Shown here: positions 2,162-64,000 of the stretch, one piece after another
Layout: each line of letters begins with the position of its first letter
Numbering within the stretch: position 1 is the first letter of the stretch
Assembly: GCA_044892505.1 (NCBI GenBank)
Contig: CM097883.1
Span: forward strand, 314,650,001-314,714,000
Length of the DNA stretch: 64,000 bases
Reading direction: 5' to 3'
Origin: Schmidtea nova
Taxonomy: Eukaryota
Position numbers and translations under genes: made by a program
The notes under the pieces: model-generated
What the model was told of the DNA's origin: nothing
Database searches by the model: none
The model's input: only the letters and a program-made list of their open reading frames with translations

Positions 2162-2277
2162 AGTAATGTAATGATTATTAAAAAACAAGGTTGTTTAAAT
2201 AATCAACTAGAACGAGTTGTTTTTAAAATAAATATTATTACTATTATTTCTTGATGTCTGATATTAAGATAGTTACT
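2162..2277 (+). repeat. 5' LTR (116 bp)
   Basis: Direct repeat of 6557-6672, followed by the PBS. Confidence 0.93.
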
Positions 2278-6400: not shown

Positions 6401-6547
6401 CCACACAGAAAGAATAAGAATGACATACAATACGATGGACCATATAAGATTGTTAGATTTTTGTCGGAACACCAGGTCGAACTACAATTTCCGGATGCTA
6501 GACGACCGAGAAGGATAGAATGACTGAAGAGATGGCATCAAAGTTGA
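3384..6547 (+). pseudogene. pol: Gypsy pol (protease, RT, RNase H, integrase) with multiple stops and one frameshift
   Basis: LWDSGA protease, YLDD RT, RNase H (DTYAC...AYGSR), HEELCH/CSIC zinc finger and D,D,E integrase. Stops at 3504, 4032, 5171, 5279, 5375, 5645 and 6521; frameshift near 4550. Possible -1 slippery site A AAA AAT at ~3395. Confidence 0.9.
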
Positions 6548-25915: not shown

Positions 25916-27394
25916 ATGTTACCTAAAGATCACAAAAGTCCTTTAAAAGGTAGACCTCTTGTATCTGCAGTTGACACTCCTTCCACAACACTTTCTAAAG
26001 TTCTTTCAGAAATTCTAAAAACACTTTTGCCTTTGGTTCCTTCTCATCTTAAAAACACAACTGAATTCGTCTCCGAAATTACAAATACGTCTCTTCCGTT
26101 AAACTCAGGACAACAGTACTTCTGGGGATCTCTTGACGTTTCCAATCTTTACGGATCTATTCCTCTTCACGGAGAGAATAACATTTTCGATATCGCAGCT
26201 TCTTTCTTTGAAACTCATAAAGCCAATACTGACCTCGCAGACTTAACTAAACAAGACTTTATAGAACTTCTAAAATTAGCAATAAATTCAGATACTGTCA
26301 TAATTAAAGAAAAACCATTCAAACAAATTCATGGATTAGCCATGGGTAATAACCTTTCTCCCATCTTAGCCATCTTCTACATGAACTTTATAGAATCTAA
26401 GATCATATCTTTTTTTGGGGACAAAATACTTTTCTGGAAACGATACATCGACGACATCTTCATAGTCTCCACAATCCCTCTCAATCAAATCCTATCACAC
26501 GCAAATTCTACTAACACCAACATACAATTTACTTTTGAAACACCGAACACAGAAGGTAAAATACCGTTTTTAGATACCATGGTAAGTTTCACAAAAGGCC
26601 AAGATACACTAAATGCAAACACCGAGCTATATTCTAAAGGTTTACATAGCGGTCATATCCTCCCATGGAAAAGCCACGTTCCACTTCAACGCAAAATCGC
26701 ATTACTAATAGGAGAAAGAAAAAGAGCCATAAGAAACTGTTCAGACGCAAACAAAATACAAGAAACATTAGAAAACTTCAAAATACGATTCCTCCAAAAT
26801 GGATACCCTGAAGACTTTGTAAAGAAACACTTCCTTAACGAACCATACCACAATAAACGCAACAATAGAAAACGCCAGAAACACAATAACAATAACAAAC
26901 ACACAACATATCTAAGATTACCTTTCCTAAATGACACTACAGCCAACAAAATCACCAACATTTTTAATCAAACAGATTTGCCTATCCACATCCGTCCAAC
27001 GTTCATAACCTCCGCACCGTTAAAATCACAACTCCGAAAGCCACCAATTTCCAACATCTCCAAACATAAATGTCTTTGTCGTTCCACAACCCGATGCTTT
27101 TGCTTTTCCAAAAATATAGTATATAAACTTTCTTGTCAAAAATGTGACGCTACTTACATAGGAGAAACACATAGAACTTTTCGCACCCGACTTAATGAAC
27201 ATACTAAAATCAAAACCAGTAATTATTACGAACACTGGGAAAAAGTACATAAAACAACTCCATCTATAGAAGAAACAAAATGCCAGATCCTACAAGAGGG
27301 ATTCAAAAATTCATTACAAAGATTAGCTTCCGAGACTTTTTTCATAAAAAAATACAAACCGTCCATCAACATTCAATTCGCACAAAAAAATTAA
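25916..27394 (+). CDS. Penelope RT plus GIY-YIG endonuclease, inverted and more truncated copy
   Basis: Identical translation to the minus-strand copy from MLPKDHK onward. Confidence 0.88.
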   Translation: MLPKDHKSPLKGRPLVSAVDTPSTTLSKVLSEILKTLLPLVPSHLKNTTEFVSEITNTSLPLNSGQQYFWGSLDVSNLYGSIPLHGENNIFDIAASFFETHKANTDLADLTKQDFIELLKLAINSDTVIIKEKPFKQIHGLAMGNNLSPILAIFYMNFIESKIISFFGDKILFWKRYIDDIFIVSTIPLNQILSHANSTNTNIQFTFETPNTEGKIPFLDTMVSFTKGQDTLNANTELYSKGLHSGHILPWKSHVPLQRKIALLIGERKRAIRNCSDANKIQETLENFKIRFLQNGYPEDFVKKHFLNEPYHNKRNNRKRQKHNNNNKHTTYLRLPFLNDTTANKITNIFNQTDLPIHIRPTFITSAPLKSQLRKPPISNISKHKCLCRSTTRCFCFSKNIVYKLSCQKCDATYIGETHRTFRTRLNEHTKIKTSNYYEHWEKVHKTTPSIEETKCQILQEGFKNSLQRLASETFFIKKYKPSINIQFAQKN

Positions 27395-38600: not shown

Positions 38601-39398
38601 TTTCACATCCTTGTATTTTAAAATAGCCAAGATGCTATATATAAAACACAAGTTATCTGTATTCTTTACATTGACAGTGCAATGTTTTGCATTTAATGAT
38701 GGAGGGGTTGAACAATAACCTTTACCGATCAATCTACTTATTTGGGAATATTTTGTAAGTTTAAAGCTTATTTCTTTAATTTTATTTATTGACCAATTGC
38801 TGCCATTTTCGCAGACTTTAGTCATTTTTTCGCTTAATAGAGCAATACCTTCATCTAAAAAGGTATCACTCATTGGTTTTGCGGAATTTGATATTATAAA
38901 AGATTGAAATTGCTTATTCTTTTCAAATTCTACATCAATACAAAAATGTACTTTTACATACCCCATTTTGGAAATAACTGAATTAAATTTATTTAATAAA
39001 GGCGAAGGAATAATTAATTTATTTAAATTTAAAGAATCTACATCCATTTTAACAATGGCATGGGATTTTTTCAAATTATATTTAACCAAAGGTTCAACAG
39101 AACCACCATATTGGACAACATGTAAATTAGGAATAACCAAAACATCGTCATTTGATGAATGGACATCTTCATCATCGGATATTACAATTACTTTAGCCGG
39201 TTTAGGACAAACAGTAACATTTCGTCGTTTACTTTTATTAATTAATGCGAAAAGAGTTTTCTTAGTACATGAGAATTGATCTAAATGGAGATAATGTTGG
39301 AAATAAAAATCAATGTAATTTATATGTTGGGCGCTCTTACATGTGGGACATAAATAGAAGGTGACTTGATTATTTATAAGACGATAGTATCGCTCCAT
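35691..39398 (-). pseudogene. polB: Protein-primed family B DNA polymerase, left arm (in-frame stops at 36924 and 36069)
   Basis: VYADFE exonuclease I, FHNLRGYD, CYLC..DHDHYTGKYLGAACSKCN endonuclease VII-like zinc insert, YIDINNLYG, KLLNNSLYGK, GDTDS, PKCY. Confidence 0.92.
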
Positions 39399-39689
39399 TA
39401 ACTTGTGGCAGTCGTTATGATTTGACGACTTACAATAATTCGCATAAAATTTACCTTAATATGAAATATCTTTAAATTTATCAAAGAATCATTAAAATAA
39501 ATTAATAAAAATATGAATTATTAGAAAATAAATATGAAATTTAAGATAAATATGATTTAAATATAATAATTACTAAAATAATTTAAATTTAATATAAAAA
39601 TTATTACAAAATAATATTAAAGGAATTTGTTTAAATTAACTGTTTACGTAAAGTAAAGATTATTTAAATTATTACAAAATATTATCAAA

Positions 39690-40071
39690 TTATATGTTTA
39701 CAAATATTTTACTATATTTATTTACTAAATTAATTAAAAGTTAATCAAATTAATTAAAATTAATCAATACTTACATTGGACATTCAATACCATGTCAGGT
39801 ATAACTCCATTATTCACAATATTCTCATTATTAACAATCTCAGCTTGTACGGTAGTTTGTTCAGTCATATTTACATCACCTAAAGTAAAAGTTAAATAAT
39901 TTACTAAGTTAATGATCAAGTACCATTTTCTTCCGCATTTTCTAACATCGATTTCCCAATTGAATTATTGATATTACCTAAATTAATATTAAATAATAAT
40001 AAATTAAAAATAAATTTACCATTCTCTTTTCCACTTGGGTTTTCATTCATAAAACTTGTTATAATGTTCAT
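39690..40071 (-). CDS. Mirror copy of the small 4-exon gene
   Basis: Reverse complement of 42716-43097; ATG at 40071. Confidence 0.5.
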
Positions 40072-40589
40072 TTTTAATGTTTATTATTTGTTAAAGTGAA
40101 TAATGAATGAAAAAGTATTGTTTATATATCAAAGTTATTACACACACATAACCTTTGACCAATAAAAATCGAGTAAGGGGTAGGAAATTTATTCTTATTA
40201 GCCAATCAGAATCGAGTAAGAGACAGTAAAGGTATTATTATCATCAAATAGAGAAATGATAGAGAATTATGACTAATTTTATATTACGTTGCAGTATTTT
40301 AAAAAACTAGAAAAGTTATTTCAACAAATTATAATACACATCAAAGTTATAAAATATTTCAATGAATTGCATGCATGTCATATGATTAAAATATATTAGA
40401 CTAAATATTTCAGTAAATTACATCTAAATTATATTACATTTCAATAATTACGTCAGTTATAAAAAATATTTTAATTAATTTTGATAAAATACATTAGAAT
40501 TGTCAATAACACACACAAAACTTTTATAATTTTCATTAGTATAGAAATTAAATTATATCTACACATGATTACAATAAATATTCGATAAA

Positions 40590-41200
40590 TCTATGCTAAA
40601 TAGTCGAAAAAATCAGTATTTTATTACAAAACACGTGTGCATCACAAACATATCGATATACTTAATTTTTAATAAAGCTATTTTGTAGGCAATTAAAATT
40701 TATCTATATGTAATTACAATGAAAACTCACTAAAGTTATTTTAAATAACTAAAACTTACAGAATTAATTACAAAACACGTGTGTAACACGAAAAACGACA
40801 ACTTTAAGATTTTATAATCAAGCCATTTTATAGGAAATTAAATTTTACATATACTTTATTACAATGAAAACTCACTAAGGTTACTTTATATTGTTAAAAA
40901 TTTGAAAATTCAAAATAAAACACGTGTGCATCACAAAATACGACAAATTTCAGAATTCTAATAAAGCCATTTTGTAGACAATTAAATTTTATTTATATAA
41001 TATTACAATGAAAACTCAAAAAAGTTATTTTGTTTAGGTGAAATATACTAATTTAATGACAAAACACGTGTGCACAACAATATACACAACATTTTGAATT
41101 TTTAATTCAGCCATTTTGTAGACAATAAAATTCTGTCTATCTATTGTTTCAATAAAAACTCGATCGGGCCGGTTTATCGACTCGAAAAAGGCGTTTGAAG
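40590..41200. repeat. Four ~144-bp tandem units, each with a CACGTG palindrome (mirror at ~41590-42200)
   Basis: CACGTG at 40632, 40776, 40921 and 41065 (spacing 144, 145, 144). Confidence 0.8.
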
Positions 41201-41206
41201 TCTTGT

Positions 41207-41580
41207 AGTAGGAGGTAGTGAGCGGTCTGCCGCCCCCCATGTGTGAACTCATATACTTTTTATTAAATTTCAAATATAATTTCATATTTAAAAAAAATTA
41301 AAACAAAAAATTCATATAATTAAAAAAATAGTCCATTTAATTAAAACAAAAATTCACTTAATTTAAACAAAAAATCACTTGGTTTAAACAAAAAATTCAA
41401 TAAATTTTAAAAATATATGAAATTACGTAATTATATATGAAATTACGTAATTATCGGGTTTTATTTAGCACGCTTGATTACGTAATGATTATGTTGTTAT
41501 GTGTGCTATGTAAAGTCCGAGCGATTACGTAATATACACACATGTGGGTAGTGGATCTGGACCGGACACTACCTCCTACT
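41207..41580. mobile_element. 374-bp mini-element with Polinton-type ends at the palindrome centre
   Basis: AGTAGGAGGTAGTG at 41207 and CACTACCTCCTACT ending at 41580. The inner right end (tccggtccagatcc) resembles the outer terminus (tcaggtctggatcc). Confidence 0.6.
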
Positions 41581-42715
41581 ACAAGACTTCAAACGCCTTT
41601 TTCGAGTCGATAAACCGGCCCGATCGAGTTTTTATTGAAACAATAGATAGACAGAATTTTATTGTCTACAAAATGGCTGAATTAAAAATTCAAAATGTTG
41701 TGTATATTGTTGTGCACACGTGTTTTGTCATTAAATTAGTATATTTCACCTAAATAAAATAACTTTTTTGAGTTTTCATTGTAATATTATATAAATAAAA
41801 TTTAATTGTCTACAAAATGGCTTTATTAGAATTCTGAAATTTGTCGTATTTTGTGATGCACACGTGTTTTATTTTGAATTTTCAAATTTTTAACAATATA
41901 AAGTAACCTTAGTGAGTTTTCATTGTAATAAAGTATATGTAAAATTTAATTTCCTATAAAATGGCTTGATTATAAAATCTTAAAGTTGTCGTTTTTCGTG
42001 TTACACACGTGTTTTGTAATTAATTCTGTAAGTTTTAGTTATTTAAAATAACTTTAGTGAGTTTTCATTGTAATTACATATAGATAAATTTTAATTGCCT
42101 ACAAAATAGCTTTATTAAAAATTAAGTTTATCGATATGTTTGTGATGCACACGTGTTTTGTAATAAAATACTGATTTTTTCGACTATTTAGCATAGATTT
42201 ATCGAATATTTATTGTAATCATGTGTAGATATAATTTAATTTCTATACTAATGAAAATTATAAAAGTTTTGTGTGTGTTATTGACAATTCTAATGTATTT
42301 TATCAAAATTAATTAAAATATTTTTTATAACTGACGTAATTATTGAAATGTAATATAATTTAGATGTAATTTACTGAAATATTTAGTCTAATATATTTTA
42401 ATCATATGACATGCATGCAATTCATTGAAATATTTTATAACTTTGATGTGTATTATAATTTGTTGAAATAACTTTTCTAGTTTTTTAAAATACTGCAACG
42501 TAATATAAAATTAGTCATAATTCTCTATCATTTCTCTATTTGATGATAATAATACCTTTACTGTCTCTTACTCGATTCTGATTGGCTAATAAGAATAAAT
42601 TTCCTACCCCTTACTCGATTTTTATTGGTCAAAGGTTATGTGTGTGTAATAACTTTGATATATAAACAATACTTTTTCATTCATTATTCACTTTAACAAA
42701 TAATAAACATTAAAA

Positions 42716-43097
42716 ATGAACATTATAACAAGTTTTATGAATGAAAACCCAAGTGGAAAAGAGAATGGTAAATTTATTTTTAATTTATTATTATTTAATA
42801 TTAATTTAGGTAATATCAATAATTCAATTGGGAAATCGATGTTAGAAAATGCGGAAGAAAATGGTACTTGATCATTAACTTAGTAAATTATTTAACTTTT
42901 ACTTTAGGTGATGTAAATATGACTGAACAAACTACCGTACAAGCTGAGATTGTTAATAATGAGAATATTGTGAATAATGGAGTTATACCTGACATGGTAT
43001 TGAATGTCCAATGTAAGTATTGATTAATTTTAATTAATTTGATTAACTTTTAATTAATTTAGTAAATAAATATAGTAAAATATTTGTAAACATATAA
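42716..43097 (+). CDS. Candidate small 4-exon acidic/Asn-rich gene upstream of polB (81 aa)
   Basis: Exons 42716-42767, 42810-42863, 42908-43012 and 43063-43097; GT-AG introns of 42, 44 and 50 nt, all phase 1, frame preserved. Two CCAAT-type repeats and a TATA-like sequence upstream (42570-42665). The last exon is the least certain. Confidence 0.55.
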
Positions 43098-43388
43098 TTT
43101 GATAATATTTTGTAATAATTTAAATAATCTTTACTTTACGTAAACAGTTAATTTAAACAAATTCCTTTAATATTATTTTGTAATAATTTTTATATTAAAT
43201 TTAAATTATTTTAGTAATTATTATATTTAAATCATATTTATCTTAAATTTCATATTTATTTTCTAATAATTCATATTTTTATTAATTTATTTTAATGATT
43301 TTTTGATAAATTTAAAGATATTTCATATTAAGGTAAATTTTATACGAATTATTGTAAGTCGTCAAATCATAACGACTGCCACAAGTTA

Positions 43389-46300
43389 ATGGAGCGATAC
43401 TATCGTCTTATAAATAATCAAGTCACCTTCTATTTATGTCCCACATGTAAGAGCGCCCAACATATAAATTACATTGATTTTTATTTCCAACATTATCTCC
43501 ATTTAGATCAATTCTCATGTACTAAGAAAACTCTTTTCGCATTAATTAATAAAAGTAAACGACGAAATGTTACTGTTTGTCCTAAACCGGCTAAAGTAAT
43601 TGTAATATCCGATGATGAAGATGTCCATTCATCAAATGACGATGTTTTAGTTATTCCTAATTTACATGTTGTCCAATATGGTGGTTCTGTTGAACCTTTG
43701 GTTAAATATAATTTGAAAAAATCCCATGCCATTGTTAAAATGGATGTAGATTCTTTAAATTTAAATAAATAAATTATTCCTTCGCCTTTATTAAATAAAT
43801 TTAATTCAGTTATTTCCAAAATGGGGTATGTAAAAGTACAATTTTGTATTGATGTAGAATTTGAAAAGAATAAGCAATTTCAATCTTTTATAATATCAAA
43901 TTCCGCAAAACCAATGAGTGATACCTTTTTAGATGAAGGTATTGCTCTATTAAGCGAAAAAATGACTAAAGTCTGCGAAAATGGCAGCAATTGGTCAATA
44001 AATAAAATTAAAGAAATAAGCTTTAAACTTACAAAATATTCCCAAATAAGTAGATTGATCGGTAAAGGTTATTGTTCAACCCCTCCATCATTAAATGCAA
44101 AACATTGCACTGTCAATGTAAAGAATACAGATAACTTGTGTTTTATATATAGCATCTTGGCTATTTTAAAATACAAGGATGTGAAATCTAATAGAAGTAA
44201 GTCTTATACTTATAATCCCTTAGACCTTGTGTTTGATCCTTCTGATTTTCCAATGAAATTATGTAATATACCCAAATTTGAAGCGAAAACCCCGGGGTTG
44301 GCAATAAATATTCTTTCATATGACGAGTATGATCTAAATTATATTACTGAGGAGGAAGAAGTCATGAAACATCCATTTGTAGATATTATTCATAGGTCAA
44401 AGGTTGTAGGTGGCACTCCAATTAATTTGATTTTGTTAGAGGAAAGTGACTCTTTTCATTATATTGCAGTTACCAATATTAATAGACTTTTAAATTGTGA
44501 CACTCTTTCTGTTACTGATGTTCAAATAAGGTGCACGTGGTGCGAGCGTTGCTTGAATGGTTTTAGATTGACTGAAGCTTTTGAGAAACATCAGGCTTTA
44601 TGCACAAAAAATCAGTTAGGTACAACTTTATACACTTTACCTTCAGATAAGAACTTGGAATTTAAAGATTGGTCAAAGATTGTTACCCCTCCTTTCGTTG
44701 TATATGCCGATTTTGAGGCTGTTTTGCCGAAGGACGATAAGTATTTTCAACGTCACTTGCCTATTTCTGCTGGCTTGTTGCTTATTAATAACTTTACCGG
44801 CGAAAAATCGTATAAAAGCTTTTATGGTCTTAACTGTGTAGAAGAGTTTTTGACTGAAATCAATGATATAGGAGAAAAAGTAGTTTTACCTTACTTTATA
44901 AATAATTCCAAAAGGAAAATGGAATATCTTTCTTCTGCACAAATAAGATCATTTCGTAGTTCTACAATTTGTTATTTATGTAATAAACCTTTGAAAAATC
45001 CGGTTAAAGATCATGACCATTATACAGGTAAATACTTGGGTGCAGCTTGCTCTAAATGCAATTTTTCTCGGCAAATAAGATTCATTATGCCAGTCATATT
45101 TCATAATTTACGCGGATATGATTTGCATCATATTCTCAAGTATGGTTTAAATAAATTCGTTAAATGGGATATAAGTTGTATTCCTACTACAAGTGAAAAG
45201 TTTTTGACTTTATATGCAAGAGTCGATAGTTTGACTATTAAATTTATCGATTCTTGCCAATTTGTAAGCTGTAGCTTAAACGATGCTGTAAAGACTTTAA
45301 CAGATTTTCGTCTTACTTCATCCGACTTTTTAGGGACTATTATTACATCCAAAGGCATATTCCCATATAATTTTGCAACTTCTTTAGAGGTTTTACAAAA
45401 TACATACGAGTTGCCACCGATTTGGGAAGGAGTTAAAATCGACGAGTATGAAAAAGCTCAACATATATGGGATGAATTTAATTGTGAAACATTGTTTGAT
45501 TATATGATGTTATACCTGAAATTGGATGTTTTCTTACTTGCCGACTTTTTTCAGCAATTTAGGGCAAAATCCATTGCACATAACCGACTTGAGCCTCTTA
45601 ATTTCTTGGGAATTCCAGGCATGTCATGGAATTCAGCTTTGATGACTTTGAAATCTCCTATCGAGTTGCTTCAAGATATGGAGATGTATAATTTTTTCGA
45701 AGGGGGGATCCGTGGTGGGTTAACATTTGTTAACATACACCATGTAATATCCTCCGACGACACTGAGCTTCTTTATATAGATATAAATAATTTATATGGG
45801 TGGGCTTTAAGCCAAAAACTACCTTATAAAGAATTTAAATGGGTAACTGATAGGGAAAAATGAAATAAAATAATTTATTACTGTGAATCTGCTGATTTAG
45901 AAGTATTAACATTTGGATTTACATTAGAAGTCGATTTAGAAATTCCTGATTCGATTCACGACAAGCTGGATGATTTGCCAGTTACCGCTGAAAAGATGTG
46001 TCCACCTGGCTCAAAGGTTGAGAAGTTGATGCTTACGCATTATCCCAAGAAGAACTATGTTCTTCATTGGAGACTTCTCAAACTTTTTCTTTCTCTTGGA
46101 GTAAAAATAACTCATGTCCATAGGGCAATTAAATTTAAACAAGCATGTATTTTTAAGGATTACATCGATACCAATACCAGACTTAGAGCAGAATCAAGTA
46201 ATGCTCTGGGTAAAAATTATTATAAATTATTAAATAATAGTCTCTACGGTAAAACCGTAGAGATTCTTAAAAAGCGCATAAATTTAAGATTATGTAATTC

Positions 46301-47096
46301 GGCTTCTAGGCTGATTACATATACTTCTAAGCCAACTTTTAAAAGGACTTTCGAAATTGACGGTGATTTGGTTGCCGTCTTGCTGAATCAGGAATCGGTG
46401 TGTTTGGATAGACCCAGCTACATTGGTCAAACTGTACTGGATCTATCTAAACTTAGAATGTACCAGCTGCAGTATGAAGAGTTACAAAAATATCGTAACG
46501 AATTCAACTGCGAAATTAACATCGTAGCTGGTGACACCGATTCGTTTTTTCTTGAGATTAGAAATTGTAAGCTTGATATTCTTTTACCGGCCATGATACG
46601 AGATAACTTACTTGACACTTCTAATTATGATCCGAATCACCCATTATATAGTAGGAACCTTGATTCTGTCATTGGCAAGTTCAAAGACAAGAATAAAGGG
46701 CTTAAATACGAGGAGTGGGTGTTTCTTAGACCTAAATGTTATAGTCTTTTAGGTGACGAGGAAACTAATAAAGCTAAGGGGGCAACATTAGCGGGTACTG
46801 ACATAAAGCATCAGTCGTACCTGGACTGTTTTAATAATAACCAAATATTTTCTGTTCCCCAAACGAGAATCACAAGTAAAAATCACCAACTTTTTACTAT
46901 TAAAAATGAAAAGACTGCACTGACAAACGCAGATGATAAAAGGAAATGGGTGTCGAAAAATAAAAGCTTGGCATATGGCCATTATATGGAAGGTGACTTG
47001 GTTATATTTCAACAAAACGATCCAAGAATCAATCCATATCACCAATTCCAAGATCAAACTGAAGAAGAAACAGTTTTATTAAATAAAATTTGTTGA
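43389..47096 (+). pseudogene. polB: Protein-primed family B DNA polymerase, right arm (in-frame stops at 43770 and 45861)
   Basis: Same motifs as the left arm; the three ORF-track pieces share one frame. Confidence 0.92.
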
Positions 47097-54030: not shown

Positions 54031-54980
54031 ATCTAAATGACCGCAAATTGGAGTAATATAATAAAGTAAATTTATGAGAAATAAATTTTATTTTATAGTA
54101 GATTGTTCTTCTCAATGGAACTCTGTAATAAATGCCACGATTTTATACTTTTCGATTTGAAATAATTTGATCTGTTTTTGTAAATCCATCAAATTGTCTT
54201 AGTATTTTAGAACTTCATATTTCTCATATTTATTTATCCTAATATATAATAATTAAACTAAAATGAGAGTTCAACTACATAATTTCCACTGTAAGCCATT
54301 GACATTAAAGATTTCCTAATATTATACTAAAAAATATAATGATACAAAAGTTTATATCACATTTTTTACACCCCTGACATAGGGAATCGCACACCTCCAA
54401 TGTTTTATTCAAAACACTCTACCCCCTCCCTCCCCTCCCCCCACACACACATCCAATGAAAGTGTAAATATACTTGTAATAAAAAATCTTTACAGAAATG
54501 CCAAAATAACGTGCTGGGTTCATGGAGGGGTTAGATGAAAAATGCTCTAACAATGACTAGGGATCCCTCATCCATGATCATGCATAAAATTGCAATCTTA
54601 CACTCAAGCGCCCTTGATTATTTCCCTATATAATCAAGTTGGTGATGCGCAGGGTGGTTAAACAATGATGGGCAGGCGAGCACTATCGCTAGTACTACTC
54701 CCCATTTATGTTTACGGGTTCATTGCTGCCGTTAGAAGGACTTATGCTTTAATCATTTGCTTAGGTATTCCGCAATAATCTTTTAGAAAATTTATTTTTA
54801 ACATTGCGTATTCTGCGAGAAGTGTTTAAATCAAAATGCTCGCTTAATTATTTATTTGCCTTTGCTAGATAATTTGTGATATGAATTTATACTTTTATAC
54901 TATATTGATCTAATTATTCGTCAATTTACCAAATCAATTTAAAGGAACAATAAACTTTTTAAGATAACACAAAATTTTAT

Positions 54981-55577
54981 TTAATTTTTAGTTAGTTCTG
55001 TAAAAACTCCAGCTGGAGGAAAAATCTCCGTCAATAATTCCTCTTCAGTCAACTGGTGTAGACCATCTACTTGACTCTGTAATCGCTGGGCGAATAATTT
55101 CCTCTGTCTTCGCCGTTTCTGCCCAATGCGCTTGCGTTTTTGGTGCGCGTTTGCCGTTGAGGTGGATGGAATTATTGCTGAAACCGGCTCATTCCGACTT
55201 TCGATTAGATCGGCGACATCCGTGCCAATGGAATTTACAGTCCTCTTTTCTGATGTCCAAGCTTGATACGTAACCGGACGGATTTGCTCTCTGAGTTCTT
55301 TCTCAATATATGAGGCAGTTACGGAATGGAGGCATTTTCGGAGTTCTAACTTTGTAGCCTCCCATTCCATTTGGTAATCGGCTGCAGTCTGCTGGGCGCG
55401 CTCGGTTTTACTGATTTGCTCCTTCATTCTGGCCGGAGCAAACCAGCTTTTGCGCAAGTATGCAATCTGTGCCTCGGCTTTGATCAATTGTGCCTTGAGG
55501 AGACCCACTTCCTTGTCCTGGGCTCTCCGGATCCGCCACATCTTTTCCAATTCTCTCTGTATCAAATCGGTGGTCAT
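54981..55577 (-). CDS. Hypothetical coiled-coil protein with basic NLS-like stretch (198 aa)
   Basis: ATG-started ORF with a heptad-rich N-terminus and KRKRIGQKRRRQRK; TAG acceptor 1 nt before the ATG. Confidence 0.6.
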   Translation of the reverse strand: MTTDLIQRELEKMWRIRRAQDKEVGLLKAQLIKAEAQIAYLRKSWFAPARMKEQISKTERAQQTAADYQMEWEATKLELRKCLHSVTASYIEKELREQIRPVTYQAWTSEKRTVNSIGTDVADLIESRNEPVSAIIPSTSTANAHQKRKRIGQKRRRQRKLFAQRLQSQVDGLHQLTEEELLTEIFPPAGVFTELTKN

Positions 55578-55762
55578 TCTATAATTTATTTACGATATTC
55601 ACTTTATAATGCAATTATATGAAAAATTGAAATCTGATTATAGGATTATTAGGTTACGAATACGAACTATTAAAAACACAAAACCAAAACTCAAAACAAC
55701 AAAATAAAAACACCGCTGAACATTAATATTTGAACACAATTTAAACATTTGACAATCAGTTT

Positions 55763-56242
55763 TTATCTCCGAAACAAGCTATGTAATTCGCTGTTAATCG
55801 GCCTCCGACGAAGACGGGCCCAAGAGAATGAGGGTTGTCCTCTCTGGCACTCCTTGCCGAACGGTTTTCGTGGTAGAAATTCGTGTAGGCCTAGTTGACA
55901 TAGTTCCCGACGAGGGATGTGCCCCCAATAAATTATATGGCTTGTTCGTCCCTCGGTGTTCCTGACTAATACGATCATTCGGCCAAACTTATTGGAGTAC
56001 GGCCTTTGGGAAATCGGCCAGTTCGGTCCTCCTCGATAGAGTATTTGGTCGTTCCCTCCTGTCCATATCGAGAACGGGCATTTTCGGCCAAACCCATGTC
56101 GCCACTTATACATCTGGCAGTTGAGGGTTCGCAAGATCGATGCCGGTAGATCCTTGAGCTGCGAGATCTTTCCATTTTGCCTATTCCCTTGTTCCACTTT
56201 CCGTAGGTGAGTTAATTGATTCATAAGTTCGGCTGTCGACAT
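55763..56242 (-). CDS. Hypothetical basic protein (159 aa)
   Basis: ATG-started ORF in a GC-richer block; TAG immediately before the ATG and TATAAAT at 56310-56304. Confidence 0.5.
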   Translation of the reverse strand: MSTAELMNQLTHLRKVEQGNRQNGKISQLKDLPASILRTLNCQMYKWRHGFGRKCPFSIWTGGNDQILYRGGPNWPISQRPYSNKFGRMIVLVRNTEGRTSHIIYWGHIPRRELCQLGLHEFLPRKPFGKECQRGQPSFSWARLRRRPINSELHSLFRR

Positions 56243-57848
56243 CTATATTACATTTATTGGATATAAAATATATGAGTTAACGGAGGGAATTTGTGGATAA
56301 ATCATTTATACTGCCTATAATCACAAAAGTTACTTAAAAATAAGATTAATTTTATTTCTCTCCGCCGTGATCTACCACGGTCGGAATAAAGAGTTCATAA
56401 TTAGTCCTGTGCTATATACAGCATTCAGGAATTATCAAATTTAATCAAGATTTCCGCGCTATATACAGCGATCGGAGAATAACTTGGGAAACCGCGCCAT
56501 ATACGACGATCGGTCTATTTTTAGTAACTAATTTAATTTAACTTGGATTTTCCGACGCATTCCAATGCGATCGGAATTTATCGATATTATAATTTTGTAG
56601 GCGAGATGCTGATTCCGAATGAAATCGGACTTTAGACTACGATGAATTTTCTCATTTCAGCGAAATTATTCAAATTTATTTTATTTGTTGCTCACTGTTT
56701 CTCCATGCGGGAGGTTCCATTACGATTCAATTGACTAAAAATTCAAATGATGAGTACGCCCTACCATGGGGGGTCCCTCCTTATCAATCCGCCCTCCGCA
56801 ATCTCCCTATTTGGCCCTCGACCCTCGTCCGTTGTGCAACCCAGAATTAAATAATTAGTAAATGGTTTGTACTAGATCAAAAATTCAATCAGATTTCTAA
56901 ATAAAATTCCACATCTAAACTAAATACTAAAAAGGTTGAACCGCCATGTGAGACCCTGAGGCCCCACAACGACGACTCGGACTCCCTCGCCGCGTGAGCA
57001 GCATAGGAAGTATAACTATATGCATCAAAATATCAATAAAATAACGTTAACATATAAAATTTTAATTGAATAAAAATCATGGGTACATCATATAAGATAA
57101 ATATAAAAATTTACTTCCGTACTTGAATGTGTGGTTCCTTGTATGAAATTCTGTTTTTCAAAAAATCTCGTTTTGTTCAATGAAATATTACTTAAATCAA
57201 AGTTTAGTCTTGATTGTAAGTGAAAAGTAAAAACGTCCCTTGTTGTGATTTTTGGATCGGTATTTATACTGATCCGTCTGGTTGGATTGACCAATCAGGA
57301 TCAGGCCGTCCTTCAAAGTATTTTTATTATTTTATTCTAATCTAAACATTATTTTGTTTTCCTTTTCCGGTTTCTCGCTGGGTGGTCCTGATTTTTCAAA
57401 TAATTAATTAATTATTTGCACTATTATTTTATTTAATTCTATCTTTGTCTTATTTCAGGCCCCCTTTTGCTGTTGTTTACCGGTTTATTTTCCAAATTTC
57501 CTTTTACTGAAAATTTATCAAATATTATTTGTCGTTTTATTGTTATTTTTAATTTGTTTTTCTTGTTATTTTTATGTTTATTATTTTCTTATTGTTTTGT
57601 GTTTTTGCTCTTTTATTGTGTTTTTAGGTGATTTGGCGGGCCCAACATCACCCGGGGACCCCTAAAATTGCGTCCCGCAATTAAGTATACATAAATACTT
57701 ATTTTCATCATACATAAAAAGTTTTATAGACTTATACATGCAAAGAAAAATCACATAAGGTGATCGAATTTATACATATCATACAATTGTCATTCATTAG
57801 TCAAAATGTAATAATTTGTCACAATAGTTCGATAAGTTATCATAAAGT

Positions 57849-58418
57849 TTATACAATTTGTTCGATCGTCTGGCTCGCTTGGGGTTGAGTTCGGGTCCTC
57901 TCGTTGATTATTTGTAGCTCGTAGTGGGTTTGGATGTGGTTGAGGTGGCTCCTTATTCGTCTTTGAGCTCGGTTATCTCGTCTGGAGGTTTGGTTGTAGA
58001 TTTTCTGCTTTTGTTTTAGGATCTTTATTCTATATGAGGCAATTAGGATTGTGATTGCGATGATAGTTGTGCTGATTGCTAGGATTATGATGATTGCTAT
58101 GATCCATTTTTCTTGATATTCTATTTCAGCTTGGGATAGGCTTTTTATGGGCTCTCTACCTTCTTTCAGGATTTTTCGGGTTTCTTTTAATTTCAGTTGT
58201 TGGTTACCGCAGATTTGTTGGATTTGATGATCTTGATTGTAGGGGTATTTCTGTCGGAATTCGTTGATTTCTTTAATTACTTCTTCGATTAGGCTGTCTA
58301 CTCTCTGGTAGATTTTGTCGGGTAGAACTCGTAATTGGGTTTCGGTTAGTTGTAGATCTTCTCTCTGTAGGGTAATGGTTGTTAACCATAGGAGTGTTGC
58401 TATTGCGAGCTTTCTCAT
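57849..58418 (-). CDS. Hypothetical type I membrane protein
   Basis: The first ATG gives MRKLAIATLLWLTTITLQ (signal-like), then a helical ectodomain, TM WIIAIIIILAISTTIIAITILIA and a basic tail. Confidence 0.7.
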   Translation of the reverse strand: MRKLAIATLLWLTTITLQREDLQLTETQLRVLPDKIYQRVDSLIEEVIKEINEFRQKYPYNQDHQIQQICGNQQLKLKETRKILKEGREPIKSLSQAEIEYQEKWIIAIIIILAISTTIIAITILIASYRIKILKQKQKIYNQTSRRDNRAQRRIRSHLNHIQTHYELQIINERTRTQPQASQTIEQIV

Positions 58419-58493: not shown

Positions 58494-59555
58494 TTATACA
58501 AGGGTTTCGTTGGGTTCGTGAAAACCTTCGTCTTGAGGTTCCACCTGATTTATGGGGAGTGGCATCCATATTACCGTGCTCCTCCACATTTCGACTTCTT
58601 CTCGGTATGTGTGGGATATCTGGATCTCTTCATCTAATAAGTATTCCAGATAGTTCGCTTGTTCTGTTAGGGTTTCAATTTGTTTTTCTAGTTCTGCCAA
58701 TTTTTTCTCTCTCTCTTCCTTCTCCATCATTTCGGTCACTGCTGCTGTGATACTTGTTTCTTTTATTGGTGTTGGTTTTTCTGCCAACTTCTTTCTCAGT
58801 TCTTCGTTTTCTTTTGTCAAATTTGTTATGTTCTCTTCATAACTCTGCCTCGTTTCTTCCAGTCTTTCTTTAGTTCTTTTTAATTCTATTTTCTTCTGGG
58901 TGATCACTCCTTGATATCCATTTATGTCTCTTTTCATGTTTTCTTCCTTGTGATTCCACATTCCGGTCAGCATACCTTTTAATTGTTCTTGATTGGCTAA
59001 ATCTTCTCCCATTCTTCGTACTTGATAAGTTAATTCTTTAATTTTCTTGGCTTGTTCTCTGATAAATTGTTGTCTTTTCTTACTCCATACTTTATTTGAT
59101 GCTTCTTGACTGATCTTTTGCCCTAATTCCTCTTTTAATTCATCGACCTCTTTAAACAGTTTCCAATCATCGCTGTATGCTGTTCGTTCTATTATCTCCC
59201 TTGCTTCCTTGTAAGAGTCTTTTGCCTCTTTCTTCCAATATCTTGCTTGTTCTGTGATTGACTGAATCTTATGGTCTGTTTTTATTTGTTGTCTATCCCT
59301 ATCCTCTCGTCGCTCTTTCATCATCTCTTTGTAGTATTCGTTTTGTTGTCTTAGCAGTTTGTAGACTTCTTCTATTTTTTCTCGACTTCTTTGATTCGTT
59401 TTCTCGGCTTCTCTTAGTGCTTGGGTTTGTCTTTCCAATTCCTCCTGTTTTCGATAATAGGCATGAATCCATATCCCAATCCGCTCCATGTGATTTCTGA
59501 TCATTTCGTCTTGATGTACTGTTACTTCTTGTAAGGTTACTTCTATATTTCCCAT
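58494..59555 (-). CDS. Hypothetical long coiled-coil protein (353 aa)
   Basis: Uninterrupted E/K/Q/R-rich heptad ORF. Confidence 0.75.
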   Translation of the reverse strand: MGNIEVTLQEVTVHQDEMIRNHMERIGIWIHAYYRKQEELERQTQALREAEKTNQRSREKIEEVYKLLRQQNEYYKEMMKERREDRDRQQIKTDHKIQSITEQARYWKKEAKDSYKEAREIIERTAYSDDWKLFKEVDELKEELGQKISQEASNKVWSKKRQQFIREQAKKIKELTYQVRRMGEDLANQEQLKGMLTGMWNHKEENMKRDINGYQGVITQKKIELKRTKERLEETRQSYEENITNLTKENEELRKKLAEKPTPIKETSITAAVTEMMEKEEREKKLAELEKQIETLTEQANYLEYLLDEEIQISHTYREEVEMWRSTVIWMPLPINQVEPQDEGFHEPNETLV

Positions 59556-59740
59556 TTCTATAATTACAGATAAAAAGAATATTTAATCATTTTTTATTTT
59601 TATTGTTTTTGATTATTTGTTAATTCATATTGTTTCTATACATTTTATTTACATGGTTACTTCCTTCATTACGCCAACCATCCTTTTCTGTCTGTTTTCT
59701 CATGCCTCTCCATCTCTATGTATAGCGTGTCTGCATATAG

Positions 59741-61045
59741 TCACTCCCATAGGTTTTCTTTCCTTATAAACATTGGTTCTCCTGCTGCTAGTCCGCATTC
59801 TGTTGTTGGTTTTTCGCTCGTACTCGTATGTTTGTCTGTTTCAAAGAACTTTTCTACTGGTTTTCCCATACTTTTGATTCTTATAATGACTCCTACTTTC
59901 AAGGGCCATTCTATTAGGTCATCGTATTCTCCTTTACATAGTGAGAAGAATATTGACACGTGTGTTCCTTGTCCTCTTCCGTCTCCATTTGGGTATACTT
60001 TCAATCTTATTTTAACCCCGTTTTTCCATAAATAAAATGGTGGGCTTATTACTGCTGTTTTCGTCATATTTCTGGCTTCTGCTAGTTTGTCTCTGAAATC
60101 TGTTACTTTCCATAGGTAAGGTGCGATTGGTAAGTCCCTTCTTTCGTCAATTTCTCGTATTAATTGATTATATTGTATTTTCATTCCTTTTCCTAATTCT
60201 TCTATGGCTATTATTTTCTTTTCCATTCTTTCGCGGGTTAGTTCAAACAGCTCTCTTGTTTCTAGTAGTAAACTCATCATTATCTTATGTGATTCTACTT
60301 CTTTTTCTAATTTCTGGATTGTCTGTTCCGTTTCTTTTGTCGTTTCGTTTGTCATTTCCACATGCGTTAGTGCTGCTTCTTCTAGGTGTTGTTTCATTGA
60401 TTGCCGCGTCCGCTTTTCTTTGCATCCCTGTTTGTTATATGGACATTCTCTTGGTCTTTCGGTACATACTTTCCAATGTTCATGTAACTTTACTTCTTCT
60501 GTTATTTCGCAATTGTTTGGACATTTACTTACATATTGTCTGCATACTTTCTCCTCTGTTATATTCAAGTGTTCCTCTTCGATTTTTCTCCTCGTTTCTC
60601 GAGTTTCACAATACTCGCATGCGATTTCTTCTTCTTTACATTCTTCCTTGTGTTGTTCTCTCTTCTTTAGAGTTATTGTCTGTTGGCATTTCTCGCATTC
60701 GGCTCTCTTTTCCTCGCATTTTTCCATATGGTTTTCCAGATTACTTATTTGTCCTTGCCATGTACAAGGTGTATTTACGCACTCCGTTGTGGTGCTCATA
60801 ATTTCTCTTTGGGTTGCTTTGTCCGTTCTGGTTTCGTCCAACACTATTCTTCCTTCCTTACATTCTGGGCATGTTGTTATTCCTGTTGCATCTAATTCTT
60901 GTATACATTTTGTACATATTCTACATCCACATATCGTTTGTCTGGGTTCTCGTAGTAAATTATTACATTTCCCGCAGGTGAGCCTCTTGCTCCATTTTCT
61001 GTTTTCTAGTCTCAAAATCTCGATTATTCGTTCTTCTCTGTCCAT
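59741..61045 (-). CDS. TRAF: Intronless TRAF-family protein (RING, TRAF zinc fingers, coiled coil, MATH)
   Basis: RING CGKC..CGCRICTKC..CPEC; zinc fingers with CPNNC and CPYNKQGC; MATH YLWKV..SPPFY..KVYPNGDGRGQGTHVSIF..GEYDDLIEWP. Confidence 0.9.
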   Translation of the reverse strand: MDREERIIEILRLENRKWSKRLTCGKCNNLLREPRQTICGCRICTKCIQELDATGITTCPECKEGRIVLDETRTDKATQREIMSTTTECVNTPCTWQGQISNLENHMEKCEEKRAECEKCQQTITLKKREQHKEECKEEEIACEYCETRETRRKIEEEHLNITEEKVCRQYVSKCPNNCEITEEVKLHEHWKVCTERPRECPYNKQGCKEKRTRQSMKQHLEEAALTHVEMTNETTKETEQTIQKLEKEVESHKIMMSLLLETRELFELTRERMEKKIIAIEELGKGMKIQYNQLIREIDERRDLPIAPYLWKVTDFRDKLAEARNMTKTAVISPPFYLWKNGVKIRLKVYPNGDGRGQGTHVSIFFSLCKGEYDDLIEWPLKVGVIIRIKSMGKPVEKFFETDKHTSTSEKPTTECGLAAGEPMFIRKENLWE

Positions 61046-61138
61046 TCTCTACAATAATATATACATTCGACTTGTCATTTATTTTTTGGTTTTTCTTGTT
61101 TTTATTTTTACATATTTACAATTTTCCGCTTTATTTAT

Positions 61139-61495
61139 CTATGGCTCATTCGTTGAATCTGGTTCCGCTTCGTTGTTTAGTCTATTTATTACCCAACTCA
61201 TCCATCCTTCTTCGGATTCTTCTCTTTCTCCTCGTGTTAAATGGTTTATTTCTATTGCTTGTCTTTGATTGATATTGCTTATATTTTGATTTTCTCTGGT
61301 GAGCTCGGTTATCGCTCTTTGTTGTTCTTCTATTCTGTGTAATTGTTCGAAACAGTTGTTATAACTTTCTGATAATAACATTTGTCTTTCCGCTAATTGG
61401 TTCTGTAATGAGTTGACTGTTCGTACTAATAAATCACATTGTGCCTTCCATCTCATAGCCATAGTTATTTCAGTTGTTTCGTCCTGTTCGGTCAT
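61139..61495 (-). CDS. Hypothetical small coiled-coil protein (118 aa)
   Basis: ATG-started ORF with the same codon bias as its neighbours. Confidence 0.65.
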   Translation of the reverse strand: MTEQDETTEITMAMRWKAQCDLLVRTVNSLQNQLAERQMLLSESYNNCFEQLHRIEEQQRAITELTRENQNISNINQRQAIEINHLTRGEREESEEGWMSWVINRLNNEAEPDSTNEP

Positions 61496-61620: not shown

Positions 61621-64000
61621 CTATACCATCATTATCGTCTTTTCCTCGTATCGTTCTTCGTCTTCTATTTGTTTCCAGAATTCTTTACCTTTCGTTCTTC
61701 TTTGGAATTCTTGCTGTATCTCTTCTGGTATTTCTATTCTTTGCTTCATAATTTTAATATCTGGCCATTGTATGGCTGTCGCTTTGTTTCTCTTTCTGTA
61801 TCTCCAATATATTATCATGCTTGTCGTCATTATCCCATATGCTATTAATATTCCTATACTGATTAATCCTATTACTGTTTTTCCACGGTTTGTTGCTTTG
61901 ATTTTATTCTGATTCGCTTTTATCTCATTTTGGGTTTGAGCCTCTGGCTTCTTCTCCTTCTGTACTTGATTCTTGACTTTGTTCATTACTTCTTGTGTAG
62001 ACCAATGGCGATTTAGTAGTTGTTTGACGTTATTTTCTTTTGTTCGGTTTTCCACGTTTCTTGGTTCGATCTGTTGTTGTAGTTTCTCTGAGATCTGATA
62101 TAATCCGCATTCTGGTTTTTCTGAACCTTTTCTAGTGAAGGTACATATCGCGTATGTCTTATTTACTTCCATTTTCTTTAATTCGACTTTTTCCTTATTC
62201 CCTGTTTCTTTACAGTGGGTTAGGTTGTCTTCTTCTCCTTCTGGGTTATGCTTTGTCCAACATATTCCTTTCACTGTTTGATCGAGTCCTGTTAATGTCA
62301 GAGTTCTTTCTGTTTTGGTTAACTCTTCTTCGTCGAATTTCAGTATTTCTCCTTTTTGAAATGTCTTACAATGCTCTATTCCCTCTTGGATTCCTTTCTC
62401 CCAGATACATATACTTCCTTCTTCATTCATTTGTATTTCTTGTATTTCGATTTCCTTGTTTGTTTGTGATTCGTCGCTTGTCTGAACTTGGTATTCCTTC
62501 CTTGGTTCGTTGTATGTTCCCCAGCATAGTTTGTTGCTGCTTGTTTTTCTTATTGTTATGGCCATTTGTTCTATTATTATTCCTCTGTCAAAACGTTTGG
62601 ACATTGCTATTATTAACGCTATGCATACGCACTCTTGTTGGGGTGATGTTCTTTCTCTCGTGTTATTGGTGCTTTTCTCCCCTTCTCCTGGTTTATCCGT
62701 TGTGTTTCTTATCTGAGTTGCTGGTTGATCTATGGTGTTTTTGATTTCTTTCTTTGTTGGTTTTACTCTATACCATTCGAGTCTAGGCGTTTCGTATTTT
62801 TGACATACTACTGTCTTAGGTAGCCCCGACTTCTTTTCCTTTCCTATTATGCATATTCGATGCATGATTCCTCTATCCATCCCTTCTATTCGTACTATAT
62901 CCTGGTCGGATTTTCTGATTATGCATTTTAGTGGGTTATCTTTCCCAATTGGTTCATCCTCTCTATTCCAGCATATTTTCTCGACCTCCTGGACATTTAC
63001 TATTTTTATCCCTGCTTGTAGGTTTGTTGCTTCTTCCCTATTGATTAATGTCAATATTATTGTTAGACCCAACCATTTTGAACTCTGCGGTAGGCTTCTG
63101 GTTCGCCTTTCATATTTTTTCTCTTCGCCTTTAATCTCTTTTATTTCCTTGTCTTTGTTGTTTATTCCTAGTTTTCCGCTTTTCGCTTCTTTCTTATTTG
63201 GTTCTTCTCGTGCTTTTTCTTCTAGTATTTCTACTCCATGGCTTGTATTATCTATATTTAGCCATTGGGTTGTTGATTTTCTTGGGCTTATCTTGCGTAT
63301 CCATATAGCTGATAGCGCGATTATTACTGGTATGGTTGCTGTTAATATTCCTAAGCCGATTAGCTCTTTAATTTCTTTATTCTCGTCTGTTTGTATAGGT
63401 TCGCTTTGGTTGAACATTATTCCGTATTGTCCCTTTAGTTTTCTCATTAATTGTTCTCGTTCCTCTTGCTTTCTTTTGACTTCTTTGATAACTTCTTCGG
63501 GTGTCCATTTTGCTTGAGGGTCGGTTATTGTTTTTTCTGCGTCCATTTGTTCATTCGTTTGGCTTAGTTCCCTGAATTCGAGTTTCCTTGTTATTCCTTT
63601 TGATGTTGCGTTCGCTGGTGTATAGTAGGTTTCGCATCTTTCTTGTTGGTTTCCTAGTGCGTCCGTTTTTTCTATTGTACATACTTCATACTCGCTATTA
63701 AATTGTAGTTTTTCGATCTTGATTTCTTTATTTGTTTTTCTGCACTCTCTTGATTGTCTTCTTATATGTTTCTGAACTATTATCCAACATATTTCTAATG
63801 TTTTATTCTCTATTTTCCATAATGTTAGAGTTGCTGATGTCTTTCTCTCGGGTTTTGTCGTAACTTCCTGGCTTATTGGTTGTTTATTGTTTTTAAAGGT
63901 AGTGGTGTACTTCGATTTTCCTTTGTTTCGTTGTTTCCTTTTATTTTTCCGTGTTAACGTTTTGGTTCTTATTCCGGATGAAGTTGTATGTATTCCGCAT
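61621..64000 (-). CDS. Large membrane protein or polyprotein with at least 4 Cys-containing FN3-like repeats and several hydrophobic segments; 5' end outside the window
   Basis: By manual translation the frame is open from 64000 to 61621. Repeats have the pattern (I/L)CW...C...(I/V)xxLxxNxxYx(V/I)C...C; the C-terminal TM is followed by RYRKR. Confidence 0.75.
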   Translation of the reverse strand, partial: CGIHTTSSGIRTKTLTRKNKRKQRNKGKSKYTTTFKNNKQPISQEVTTKPERKTSATLTLWKIENKTLEICWIIVQKHIRRQSRECRKTNKEIKIEKLQFNSEYEVCTIEKTDALGNQQERCETYYTPANATSKGITRKLEFRELSQTNEQMDAEKTITDPQAKWTPEEVIKEVKRKQEEREQLMRKLKGQYGIMFNQSEPIQTDENKEIKELIGLGILTATIPVIIALSAIWIRKISPRKSTTQWLNIDNTSHGVEILEEKAREEPNKKEAKSGKLGINNKDKEIKEIKGEEKKYERRTRSLPQSSKWLGLTIILTLINREEATNLQAGIKIVNVQEVEKICWNREDEPIGKDNPLKCIIRKSDQDIVRIEGMDRGIMHRICIIGKEKKSGLPKTVVCQKYETPRLEWYRVKPTKKEIKNTIDQPATQIRNTTDKPGEGEKSTNNTRERTSPQQECVCIALIIAMSKRFDRGIIIEQMAITIRKTSSNKLCWGTYNEPRKEYQVQTSDESQTNKEIEIQEIQMNEEGSICIWEKGIQEGIEHCKTFQKGEILKFDEEELTKTERTLTLTGLDQTVKGICWTKHNPEGEEDNLTHCKETGNKEKVELKKMEVNKTYAICTFTRKGSEKPECGLYQISEKLQQQIEPRNVENRTKENNVKQLLNRHWSTQEVMNKVKNQVQKEKKPEAQTQNEIKANQNKIKATNRGKTVIGLISIGILIAYGIMTTSMIIYWRYRKRNKATAIQWPDIKIMKQRIEIPEEIQQEFQRRTKGKEFWKQIEDEERYEEKTIMMV

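What the first reader, a model, noticed from the sequence alone, without database searches (positions are those of the whole stretch)
59669..61045. Intronless full-architecture TRAF inside the element
RING, zinc fingers, coiled coil and MATH are all present without introns and share the element's A-rich codon usage. That suggests an old capture from mRNA followed by retention under selection. TRAFs are adaptors/E3 ligases of TNFR/TLR signalling; a TRAF encoded by a retroelement would be unusual. The third RING ligand region has C in place of the usual H (CGCRIC).
Basis: partly seen in the sequence, partly recalled or inferred. Interest (0 to 1): 0.7.

Follow-up and report, generated by a model that had tools for sequence, protein, structure and literature searches.

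The report
Giant retrotransposons carry a full TRAF
A 30-kb jumping gene, present in many copies in what is likely a flatworm genome, carries its own complete, selectively conserved copy of a cell-signalling protein (TRAF), in one sister family beside an apoptosis-inhibitor gene, and likely uses it to keep its host cell alive, which extends a partly known kind of element.

Summary
Window 61045-59669 (-) encodes RING, zinc fingers, coiled coil and MATH in one frame, but this copy has an in-frame stop at codon 435; 46 of 50 examined copies are unbroken. It is a 3' accessory gene of a 29,693-bp Burro-type gypsy element (LTRs 99.8% alike, 4-bp target duplication, env-PR-RT-RH-IN-ankyrin polyprotein), with at least 97 copies under purifying selection (pN/pS 0.13). 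New here: three Burro families keep this TRAF at the same place and form one clade beside the host Cys-RING TRAFs; one family, lacking RT and integrase, keeps TRAF next to a cIAP-like gene; and 17 of 20 accessory ORFs have an acceptor-like yAG just before the ATG, suggesting operon-like processing. A MATH domain in Burro is already in print (PMC6431247). Likely role: pro-survival adaptor, untested. New variant of a known kind.

The parts
59669..61045 (-). TRAF accessory gene of the element (family-length frame 458 codons; this copy stops at codon 435)
60860..60976 (-). RING with eight Cys ligands (Cys in place of the usual His), codons 24-62
60380..60781 (-). TRAF zinc fingers, with the short insertion that host Cys-RING TRAFs also have
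   Evidence: PF02176; alignment A1
60137..60373 (-). Coiled coil (TRAF-N), codons 225-303
   Evidence: model helix H225-303
59744..60118 (-). MATH / TRAF-C domain up to the premature stop
   Evidence: PF22486, PF21355; Foldseek
59741..59743 (-). In-frame TGA, private to this copy among 50 examined; removes the last MATH strand
61049..61051 (-). Acceptor-like TAG after a T-rich tract, 3 nt before the TRAF ATG; present in 50 of 50 copies
   Evidence: function inferred
61139..61495 (-). Accessory ORF118 (no family; homologues upstream of TRAF in families B and D)
58494..59555 (-). Accessory ORF353 (no Pfam family; homologues downstream of TRAF in families B and D)
57849..58418 (-). Accessory ORF189 (hydrophobic N-terminus and one likely membrane segment; homologue in family B)
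61621..64000 (-). 3' end of the 5,075-aa polyprotein (env-like fusion protein, PR, RT, RNase H, integrase, ankyrins lie beyond the window, G000:C2 to 314726848)
54512..57647 (-). 3' LTR, 3,136 bp, 7 mismatches to the 5' LTR (which ends at G000:C2:314734204); TG...CA ends
54981..55577 (-). 198-aa ORF inside the LTR, also with an acceptor-like TAG before its ATG
54508..54511 (+). Left copy of the 4-bp target-site duplication AACG

Best explanation
The gene is a full-length TRAF carried as a conserved accessory gene by a family of giant Burro-type LTR retrotransposons, likely taken once, long ago, from the host's own intronless Cys-RING TRAF lineage, likely made into its own mRNA through a splice acceptor just upstream of its start codon, and likely acting as a trimeric adaptor that works with an IAP-type ligase to hold death signalling down in the cell where the element replicates. 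Shown: location, copy number, domain order, selection, one element clade beside host Cys-RING TRAFs, TRAF-IAP adjacency in family D. Inferred: direction of transfer; processing by spliced-leader trans-splicing (or cis-splicing from the 5' leader); trimer formation; that ubiquitin transfer comes mainly from an IAP-type RING (element or host) because families A and B have Lys and Asn/Lys at the TRAF6 Ile72/Leu74 E2-contact positions while keeping a basic residue at the linker-helix Arg position; and the pro-survival outcome. The window's own allele is truncated and probably inactive.
For: Element anatomy. All 30 first loci align to the element over their 4.3 kb at 94-100% (one in two pieces). 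pN/pS 0.13 over 50 copies, 0.18 in the 20 chosen by DNA rank, 0.11 between subfamilies, against 0.38 for the polyprotein tail and 0.26 for ORF189. Families A, B and D TRAFs form one clade 100/99 and join host Cys-RING TRAFs 97/94. Family D: TRAF beside BIR in 7 of 8 loci; the BIR-RING protein's best solved relative is cIAP1 (3t6p, E 1e-14); pN/pS 0.13 and 0.22 (4 and 5 copies); 3 of 3 copies checked lack env, RT, RNase H and integrase yet keep this cargo. Families B, C, D carry a 5' IAP-type RING ORF (PF13920). TRAF2-cIAP2 complexes are established (cited in PMC5702613, reference list passage). Burro1's BIR-RING protein protects stem cells from apoptosis (second-hand, passages of PMC13465017). 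RNAi of host TRAFs raises cell death (PMC7586133, abstract). Acceptor-like yAG: 5 of 6 ORFs in A, 5 of 5 in B, 7 of 9 in D, against 130 of 571 background ATGs; spacers 78-128 nt, under the 300-nt operon threshold used for flatworms (PMC12582326, passages).
Against: No expression, binding or activity was measured. Family A itself showed no BIR in the Pfam scans of its ORFs, and its 5' RING ORF is split over two frames in this copy. Purifying selection shows use, not which use. In family A the MATH groove departs from TRAF3 (SSSF read as TSTS, ASGC as AAGE), so receptor binding may be altered or lost. Host monophyly against the element has only 63/48-68/73 support, so direction is open; element rows differ in letter make-up and several host branches are long. 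The acceptor count is not independent across orthologous ORFs, the background is mostly coding sequence, and family D's TRAF counts only at its second ATG. The viral TRAF of ISKNV is recalled to promote, not block, apoptosis.
Confidence: 0.5

Rival explanations
1. Decoy: the element TRAF joins host TRAF oligomers or receptor tails but cannot recruit E2, so it dampens innate (TBK1, TAK1-p38) signalling against the element's own nucleic acids rather than promoting survival.
For: Lys/Asn (A) and Lys/Lys (B) at the Ile72/Leu74 positions resemble the E2-blind I72D/L74R TRAF6 mutant, and TRAF RING heterodimers form (PMC5702613 passages). Host TRAFs are TBK1-induced immune genes in S. mediterranea (PMC13563047 passages). 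Large DNA viruses carry TRAF-like proteins.
Against: Family D keeps Val at the Ile72 position and pairs TRAF with a whole IAP; all eight RING ligands are kept in 50 of 50 copies, more than a bare decoy may need. TRAF2, 3 and 5 also lack these residues and are not decoys (recalled; one search shows TRAF5).
Confidence: 0.28
2. Active E3: the RING recruits an E2 other than Ubc13 and ubiquitylates host restriction or death proteins bound by the MATH domain.
For: RING pN/pS 0.11-0.17 and invariant ligands; the MATH groove has diverged as if for a new client.
Against: Charged residue at the usual first-loop hydrophobic E2 contact in families A and B.
Confidence: 0.14
3. Reverse flow (about origin; compatible with any function above): the intronless Cys-RING host TRAFs descend from Burro cargo or from one retrocopy made in the Burro era, so the element helped seed the planarian TRAF expansion.
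For: Element clade and host Cys-RING genes form an unresolved polytomy; host monophyly was not rejected; the host genes lack introns between RING and MATH.
Against: Host genes have host-like codon use and no Burro polyprotein in 10-20 kb of flank; TRAFs are ancient animal genes, so the first step must be host to element.
Confidence: 0.15
4. Neutral passenger or ordinary host gene caught in a repeat.
For: The window's own allele is broken; 4 of 50 copies carry a stop or frameshift.
Against: pN/pS 0.13, retention in three families down to 37% identity, full codon amelioration, LTRs and target duplication around it.
Confidence: 0.02

Closest known systems
Burro1 / GYPSM1 and Burro-2, -3, -4 of Schmidtea mediterranea; Burro-like element of Dugesia tigrina (PMC6431247, section 7 read in full)
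   Same: Giant gypsy LTR element of about 30 kb; gag with CCHC knuckles, env-like fusion protein in frame before PR, RT-RH-IN, ankyrins; TRAF-related and RING cargo.
   Different: The paper names only a MATH_TRAF_C domain, inside the polyprotein (Burro1) or in an upstream accessory ORF (D. tigrina). Here it is a whole RING-ZF-CC-MATH gene downstream of pol, in a cassette of ORFs with acceptor-like sites. The Burro1-type layout exists in this genome too (family C, MATH inside a 4,706-aa frame) and its MATH groups with the A and B TRAFs at 90/60, unstarred.
B-IAP of Burro1 (Lee et al. 2026; seen only second-hand in passages of PMC13465017)
   Same: Retrotransposon-borne BIR-RING protein; family D has a BIR-RING gene.
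   Different: The passages mention no TRAF partner; in family D the IAP gene directly follows the TRAF gene. Family A showed no BIR.
Animal TRAF2/3/5 and the expanded planarian TRAFs (PMC6109357 passages, PMC7586133 abstract and passages)
   Same: Domain order and fold; best PDB matches TRAF3, TRAF5, TRAF2.
   Different: Only 23-27% identity to named full-length TRAFs; Cys-for-His RING shared only with this host's clade; element-encoded and multi-copy.
Viral TRAFs of megalocytiviruses and giant viruses (BFVD hits)
   Same: A selfish replicon carrying a TRAF-fold protein.
   Different: DNA viruses, 11-29% identity, independent captures; the carrier here is an LTR retroelement.
Flatworm operons resolved by spliced-leader trans-splicing (PMC12582326, passages)
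   Same: Same-strand genes under 300 nt apart, acceptor upstream of each downstream gene.
   Different: Described for host genes; here predicted for a retrotransposon cassette, with no RNA evidence.

Membership tests
TRAF proteins | C-terminal MATH/TRAF-C domain | tested here: met
   PF22486 72 bits (cut-off 32), PF21355 65.5 (27.4); Foldseek E 5e-17. Truncated in the window's allele.
TRAF proteins | Coiled coil before MATH | tested here: met
   Helix 225-303 in the model
TRAF proteins | N-terminal RING followed by TRAF zinc fingers | tested here: met
   PDB TRAF6/5/2 RING-ZF E 1e-14 to 5e-11; PF02176 over cut-off; RING profiles alone below cut-off (E 0.018-0.027)
TRAF proteins | Trimer formation and receptor-peptide binding | not tested
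   Groove partly changed against TRAF3
TRAF6-type E3 ligase | Ile72/Leu74 E2-contact residues | tested here: not met
   Lys/Asn in family A, Lys/Lys in B, Val/Arg in D (residues named in PMC5702613)
Burro giant gypsy elements | About 30 kb with long LTRs | tested here: met
   29,693 bp, LTRs 3,136 bp; just under the '>30 kb' of S. mediterranea
Burro giant gypsy elements | Gag knuckles, in-frame env between gag and PR, PR-RT-RH-IN, ankyrins in one giant polyprotein | tested here: met
   (PF00098, PF24664 E 5e-67, RVP, RVT_1, RNase H, integrase, Ank). Gag runs into pol in 6 of 12 other loci (6 of 6 where gag was found); this copy has a stop there
Burro giant gypsy elements | MATH_TRAF_C cargo | tested here: met
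   As a separate 3' gene (A, B, D) or in the polyprotein (C)
Burro giant gypsy elements | BIR and BCL2-like cargo | tested here: inconclusive
   No BIR or BCL2 Pfam hit in the family A pieces scanned; a BH2-like stretch is visible by eye in the polyprotein (motif recalled); BIR present in family D
Burro giant gypsy elements | RT groups with published Burro1-4 | not testable with these tools
   No Burro sequence was returned or 119
Spliced-leader operon | Leader joined at the acceptor of each downstream gene | not testable with these tools
   Only DNA signs

The most novel reading that the evidence does not exclude
Burro elements are the first retrotransposons with a captured TRAF-cIAP signalling module, expressed from an operon that borrows the host's spliced-leader machinery; the module is valuable enough that a family without RT or integrase spreads to high copy number keeping it, and the Burro1 MATH domain is a cut-down relic of the same capture.
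Probability: 0.3. Interest if true: 0.8.

Novelty: new variant of a known kind. Interest (0 to 1): 0.55.

Why it matters
Burro1 is reported to protect planarian stem cells through a captured IAP. A whole TRAF kept under selection in three sister families, once right beside an IAP, suggests that these elements carry a receptor-proximal survival or immune module as large DNA viruses do, and gives RNAi-ready targets. It also means that some of the 'expanded TRAF family' counted in planarian transcriptomes may be transposon cargo. The acceptor pattern gives a sharp, cheap prediction on how an LTR element expresses several 3' genes.

Tried and rejected
Run search: no RNA holder listed. The four runs laid were contigs that cover unique flank and element alike and showed no joint at the predicted acceptors; nothing is drawn from this on expression. 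The search of protein representatives was queued and never returned. Protein searches gave 10 and 13 hits, none labelled as a planarian or a transposon. Viral contigs: 52 pattern matches, none a relative. Earlier findings of the scan: nothing. Grohme et al. 2018 and Lee et al. 2026 are not held; their figures and supplements may already show a full TRAF in Burro-2, -3 or -4. MATH-only trees were mostly unresolved; the first dropped 7 rows, family C among them, through a faulty cut. A splice-donor scan of the LTR with one strict pattern gave one weak site, which does not separate cis- from trans-splicing. Rejected: readthrough as the meaning of the codon-435 stop (private to one of 50 copies); the His-to-Cys change as an element novelty; intron loss as proof of capture.

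Full report
Observation. The minus-strand frame from ATG 61045 encodes RING, zinc fingers, coiled coil and MATH without interruption. Of 50 copies examined (30 ranked by protein, 20 taken from the 40 ranked by DNA), only the window's has that stop, and 4 of 50 are broken anywhere. A model of a natural sister copy (pLDDT 85.6, pTM 0.38, 16-row alignment) puts the last MATH strand at 440-448, beyond the stop, so the window's allele is probably inactive. The fold matches TRAF3, 1, 5 and 2 at E 5e-17 to 4e-16.

The element. With the neighbouring stretches the gene lies in a 29,693-bp element, window 54512 to 84204, with 3,136-bp LTRs that differ at 7 sites, TG...CA ends and a 4-bp target duplication. 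Its order is LTR, small RING ORF, gag, a 5,075-aa frame (env-like fusion protein E 5e-67, protease, RT, RNase H, integrase, ankyrins), ORF118, TRAF, ORF353, ORF189, LTR. This is the anatomy published for Burro elements of planarians, down to env in frame before the protease (PMC6431247, section 7 read in full). G000 is unnamed; that it is a planarian is my inference from this anatomy and from its many TRAF genes. The search scored 97 of 5,533 candidates, all at 96-100% identity; a DNA search had 609 candidates. At the expected distance 7 of 12 other loci had element sequence, and gag ran into pol in 6; 5 had none, so many copies are truncated or differ in length. The window's copy has a stop between gag and pol and a split 5' RING ORF.

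Selection and age. Pairwise pN/pS is 0.13 over 50 copies; 0.10 in the protein-ranked set, which is biased low, and 0.18 in the DNA-ranked set; 0.11 between the two subfamilies; 0.11-0.17 in every domain; 0.38 in the polyprotein tail and 0.26 in ORF189. Four-fold sites are 70% A as in pol (62-63%), against 30-39% in five host TRAFs. Family B (62 of the 150 rows have its 476-codon frame, counted by hand; one copy read in full) has the same gene order, 73% identity in the polyprotein core and 52% in TRAF. Family D, found through a BIR search (150 rows, most with one 399-codon frame), has TRAF at 37% identity between homologues of ORF118 and ORF353. Family C has only MATH, inside a 4,706-aa frame, as Burro1 does.

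Origin. Seven host TRAFs run from RING to MATH in one frame, and all seven have Cys at the His ligand; 8 of 9 outside TRAFs in alignment A1 have His. Host and element proteins also share an insertion in the second zinc finger. Many other host MATH hits have frames of only 135-216 codons, so intron-bearing or short TRAFs are common too. In a 16-row tree the A, B and D TRAFs are one clade (100/99) and join the seven host genes (97/94) to the exclusion of a host TRAF4-like gene and five outside TRAFs (near-duplicates and the longest outside branches left out). The inside of that clade is open (host monophyly 63/48), so one old capture from this lineage is the simplest reading, but the direction is not shown. 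Family C's MATH joins A and B at 90/60, neither shown nor rejected. Intron absence says nothing about the route of capture.

How it would be expressed. The four spacers are 78-128 nt, hold TGTAWA 12 times in 418 nt against 4 in 5,730 nt of coding sequence, and AATAAA eight times more densely. A TAG or CAG ends 0-8 nt before the ATG in 5 of 6 accessory ORFs of family A, 5 of 5 in B and 7 of 9 in D (D's TRAF at its second ATG), against 130 of 571 background ATGs counted at 1-8 nt; before TRAF it is kept in 50 of 50 copies. Orthologous ORFs are not independent and the background is mostly coding. Flatworm operons with spacers under 300 nt are resolved by spliced-leader trans-splicing, which is described in S. 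mediterranea (PMC12582326, passages). I infer leader trans-splicing, with cis-splicing from the 5' leader as the alternative. This is a prediction from DNA alone.

What it would do. Against TRAF6 the RING has Lys and Asn at Ile72 and Leu74, the pair whose mutation abolishes Ubc13 binding, while the linker-helix Arg position keeps Arg in A and D and Lys in B (PMC5702613, passages). Five of the seven host genes and family D keep a hydrophobic residue at the first position with Ile or Leu or Val. The MATH groove keeps Tyr and Asp but changes SSSF to TSTS and ASGC to AAGE against TRAF3. In family D the next gene is a BIR-RING protein closest to cIAP1 among solved structures; TRAF lay beside BIR in 7 of 8 loci; both are under purifying selection; and 3 of 3 copies checked go from protease straight to ankyrins, without env, RT or integrase. 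Since TRAF2 and cIAP act as a unit in animals, Burro1's IAP is reported to protect stem cells (second-hand, PMC13465017 passages) and host TRAF knock-down raises cell death (PMC7586133, abstract), I favour a pro-survival adaptor (0.5) over an immune decoy (0.28) or a stand-alone E3 (0.14). NF-kB is a poor read-out here, since clear homologues were not identified in S. mediterranea (PMC13563047, passages).

Novelty. MATH_TRAF_C, BIR, RING and ankyrin cargo in Burro is known, and a MATH-bearing accessory ORF is noted for D. tigrina (PMC6431247). Viral TRAF-like proteins exist in iridoviruses and giant viruses. A whole TRAF as a 3' gene, the TRAF-IAP pair and the acceptor pattern did not appear in my searches for burro + retrotransposon + planarian, burro1, giant retrotransposon + IAP, burro + traf, host-transposon mutualism, and retrotransposon + traf + ring + accessory orf (listings seen, a few papers read in passages). 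The two primary Burro papers are not held and may cover part of this. Verdict: real, a new variant of a known kind, interest 0.55.

Noticed in passing
L149-L158 (e.g. L158:1312-9030, minus strand): Family D: high-copy Burro derivative with 3.8-kb LTRs (99.6% alike) that lacks env, RT, RNase H and integrase in 3 of 3 copies checked but keeps protease, ankyrins, TRAF, IAP and five or more further ORFs.
   Followed up: partly
L107-L121 (e.g. L107:1300-2890): A dispersed repeat of about 1.55 kb carries 670 bp of a host TRAF RING-zinc-finger region (93-98% to L106) and a stretch that reads like a proteasome alpha-subunit fragment (recalled); at least 15 decayed copies, Helitron- or Pack-like.
   Followed up: partly
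L032:7000-7735 (5' part of the window's element); L069:8187-8642; L071:5202-5594; L152:7634-8113: A small 5' ORF of helical region plus IAP-type RING without BIR in all four families; split over two frames in the window's element.
   Followed up: partly
window 61621-64000 and L031:1-1900: The polyprotein ends in several repeated Cys-Trp modules flanked by hydrophobic segments, like a membrane protein with fibronectin-type repeats (recalled); no Pfam hit.
   Followed up: no
window 54981-55577: A 198-aa ORF inside the LTR, with distant homologues in sister LTRs and an acceptor-like TAG.
   Followed up: no
L075:6221-7669: A family B copy in which a deletion fuses the TRAF MATH domain in frame to the end of the ORF353 homologue.
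   Followed up: no
G000:C1:590842186-590943443: Four family A TRAF copies spaced about 33 kb apart, suggesting a tandem array of whole elements.
   Followed up: no
G000:C2:405-455 Mb: A large cluster of host MATH genes, several in tandem arrays of 4-5 kb period.
   Followed up: no
window 24200-27394 and 36072-47096: Two facing pairs of near-identical ORFs on opposite strands: RT ORFs (494 and 492 aa) and endonuclease VII plus DNA polymerase B ORFs (Polinton-like), suggesting inverted duplications.
   Followed up: no
window 2254-6523 and 8450-9097: A broken ordinary gypsy element (protease, RT, integrase) and a mariner-type transposase.
   Followed up: no
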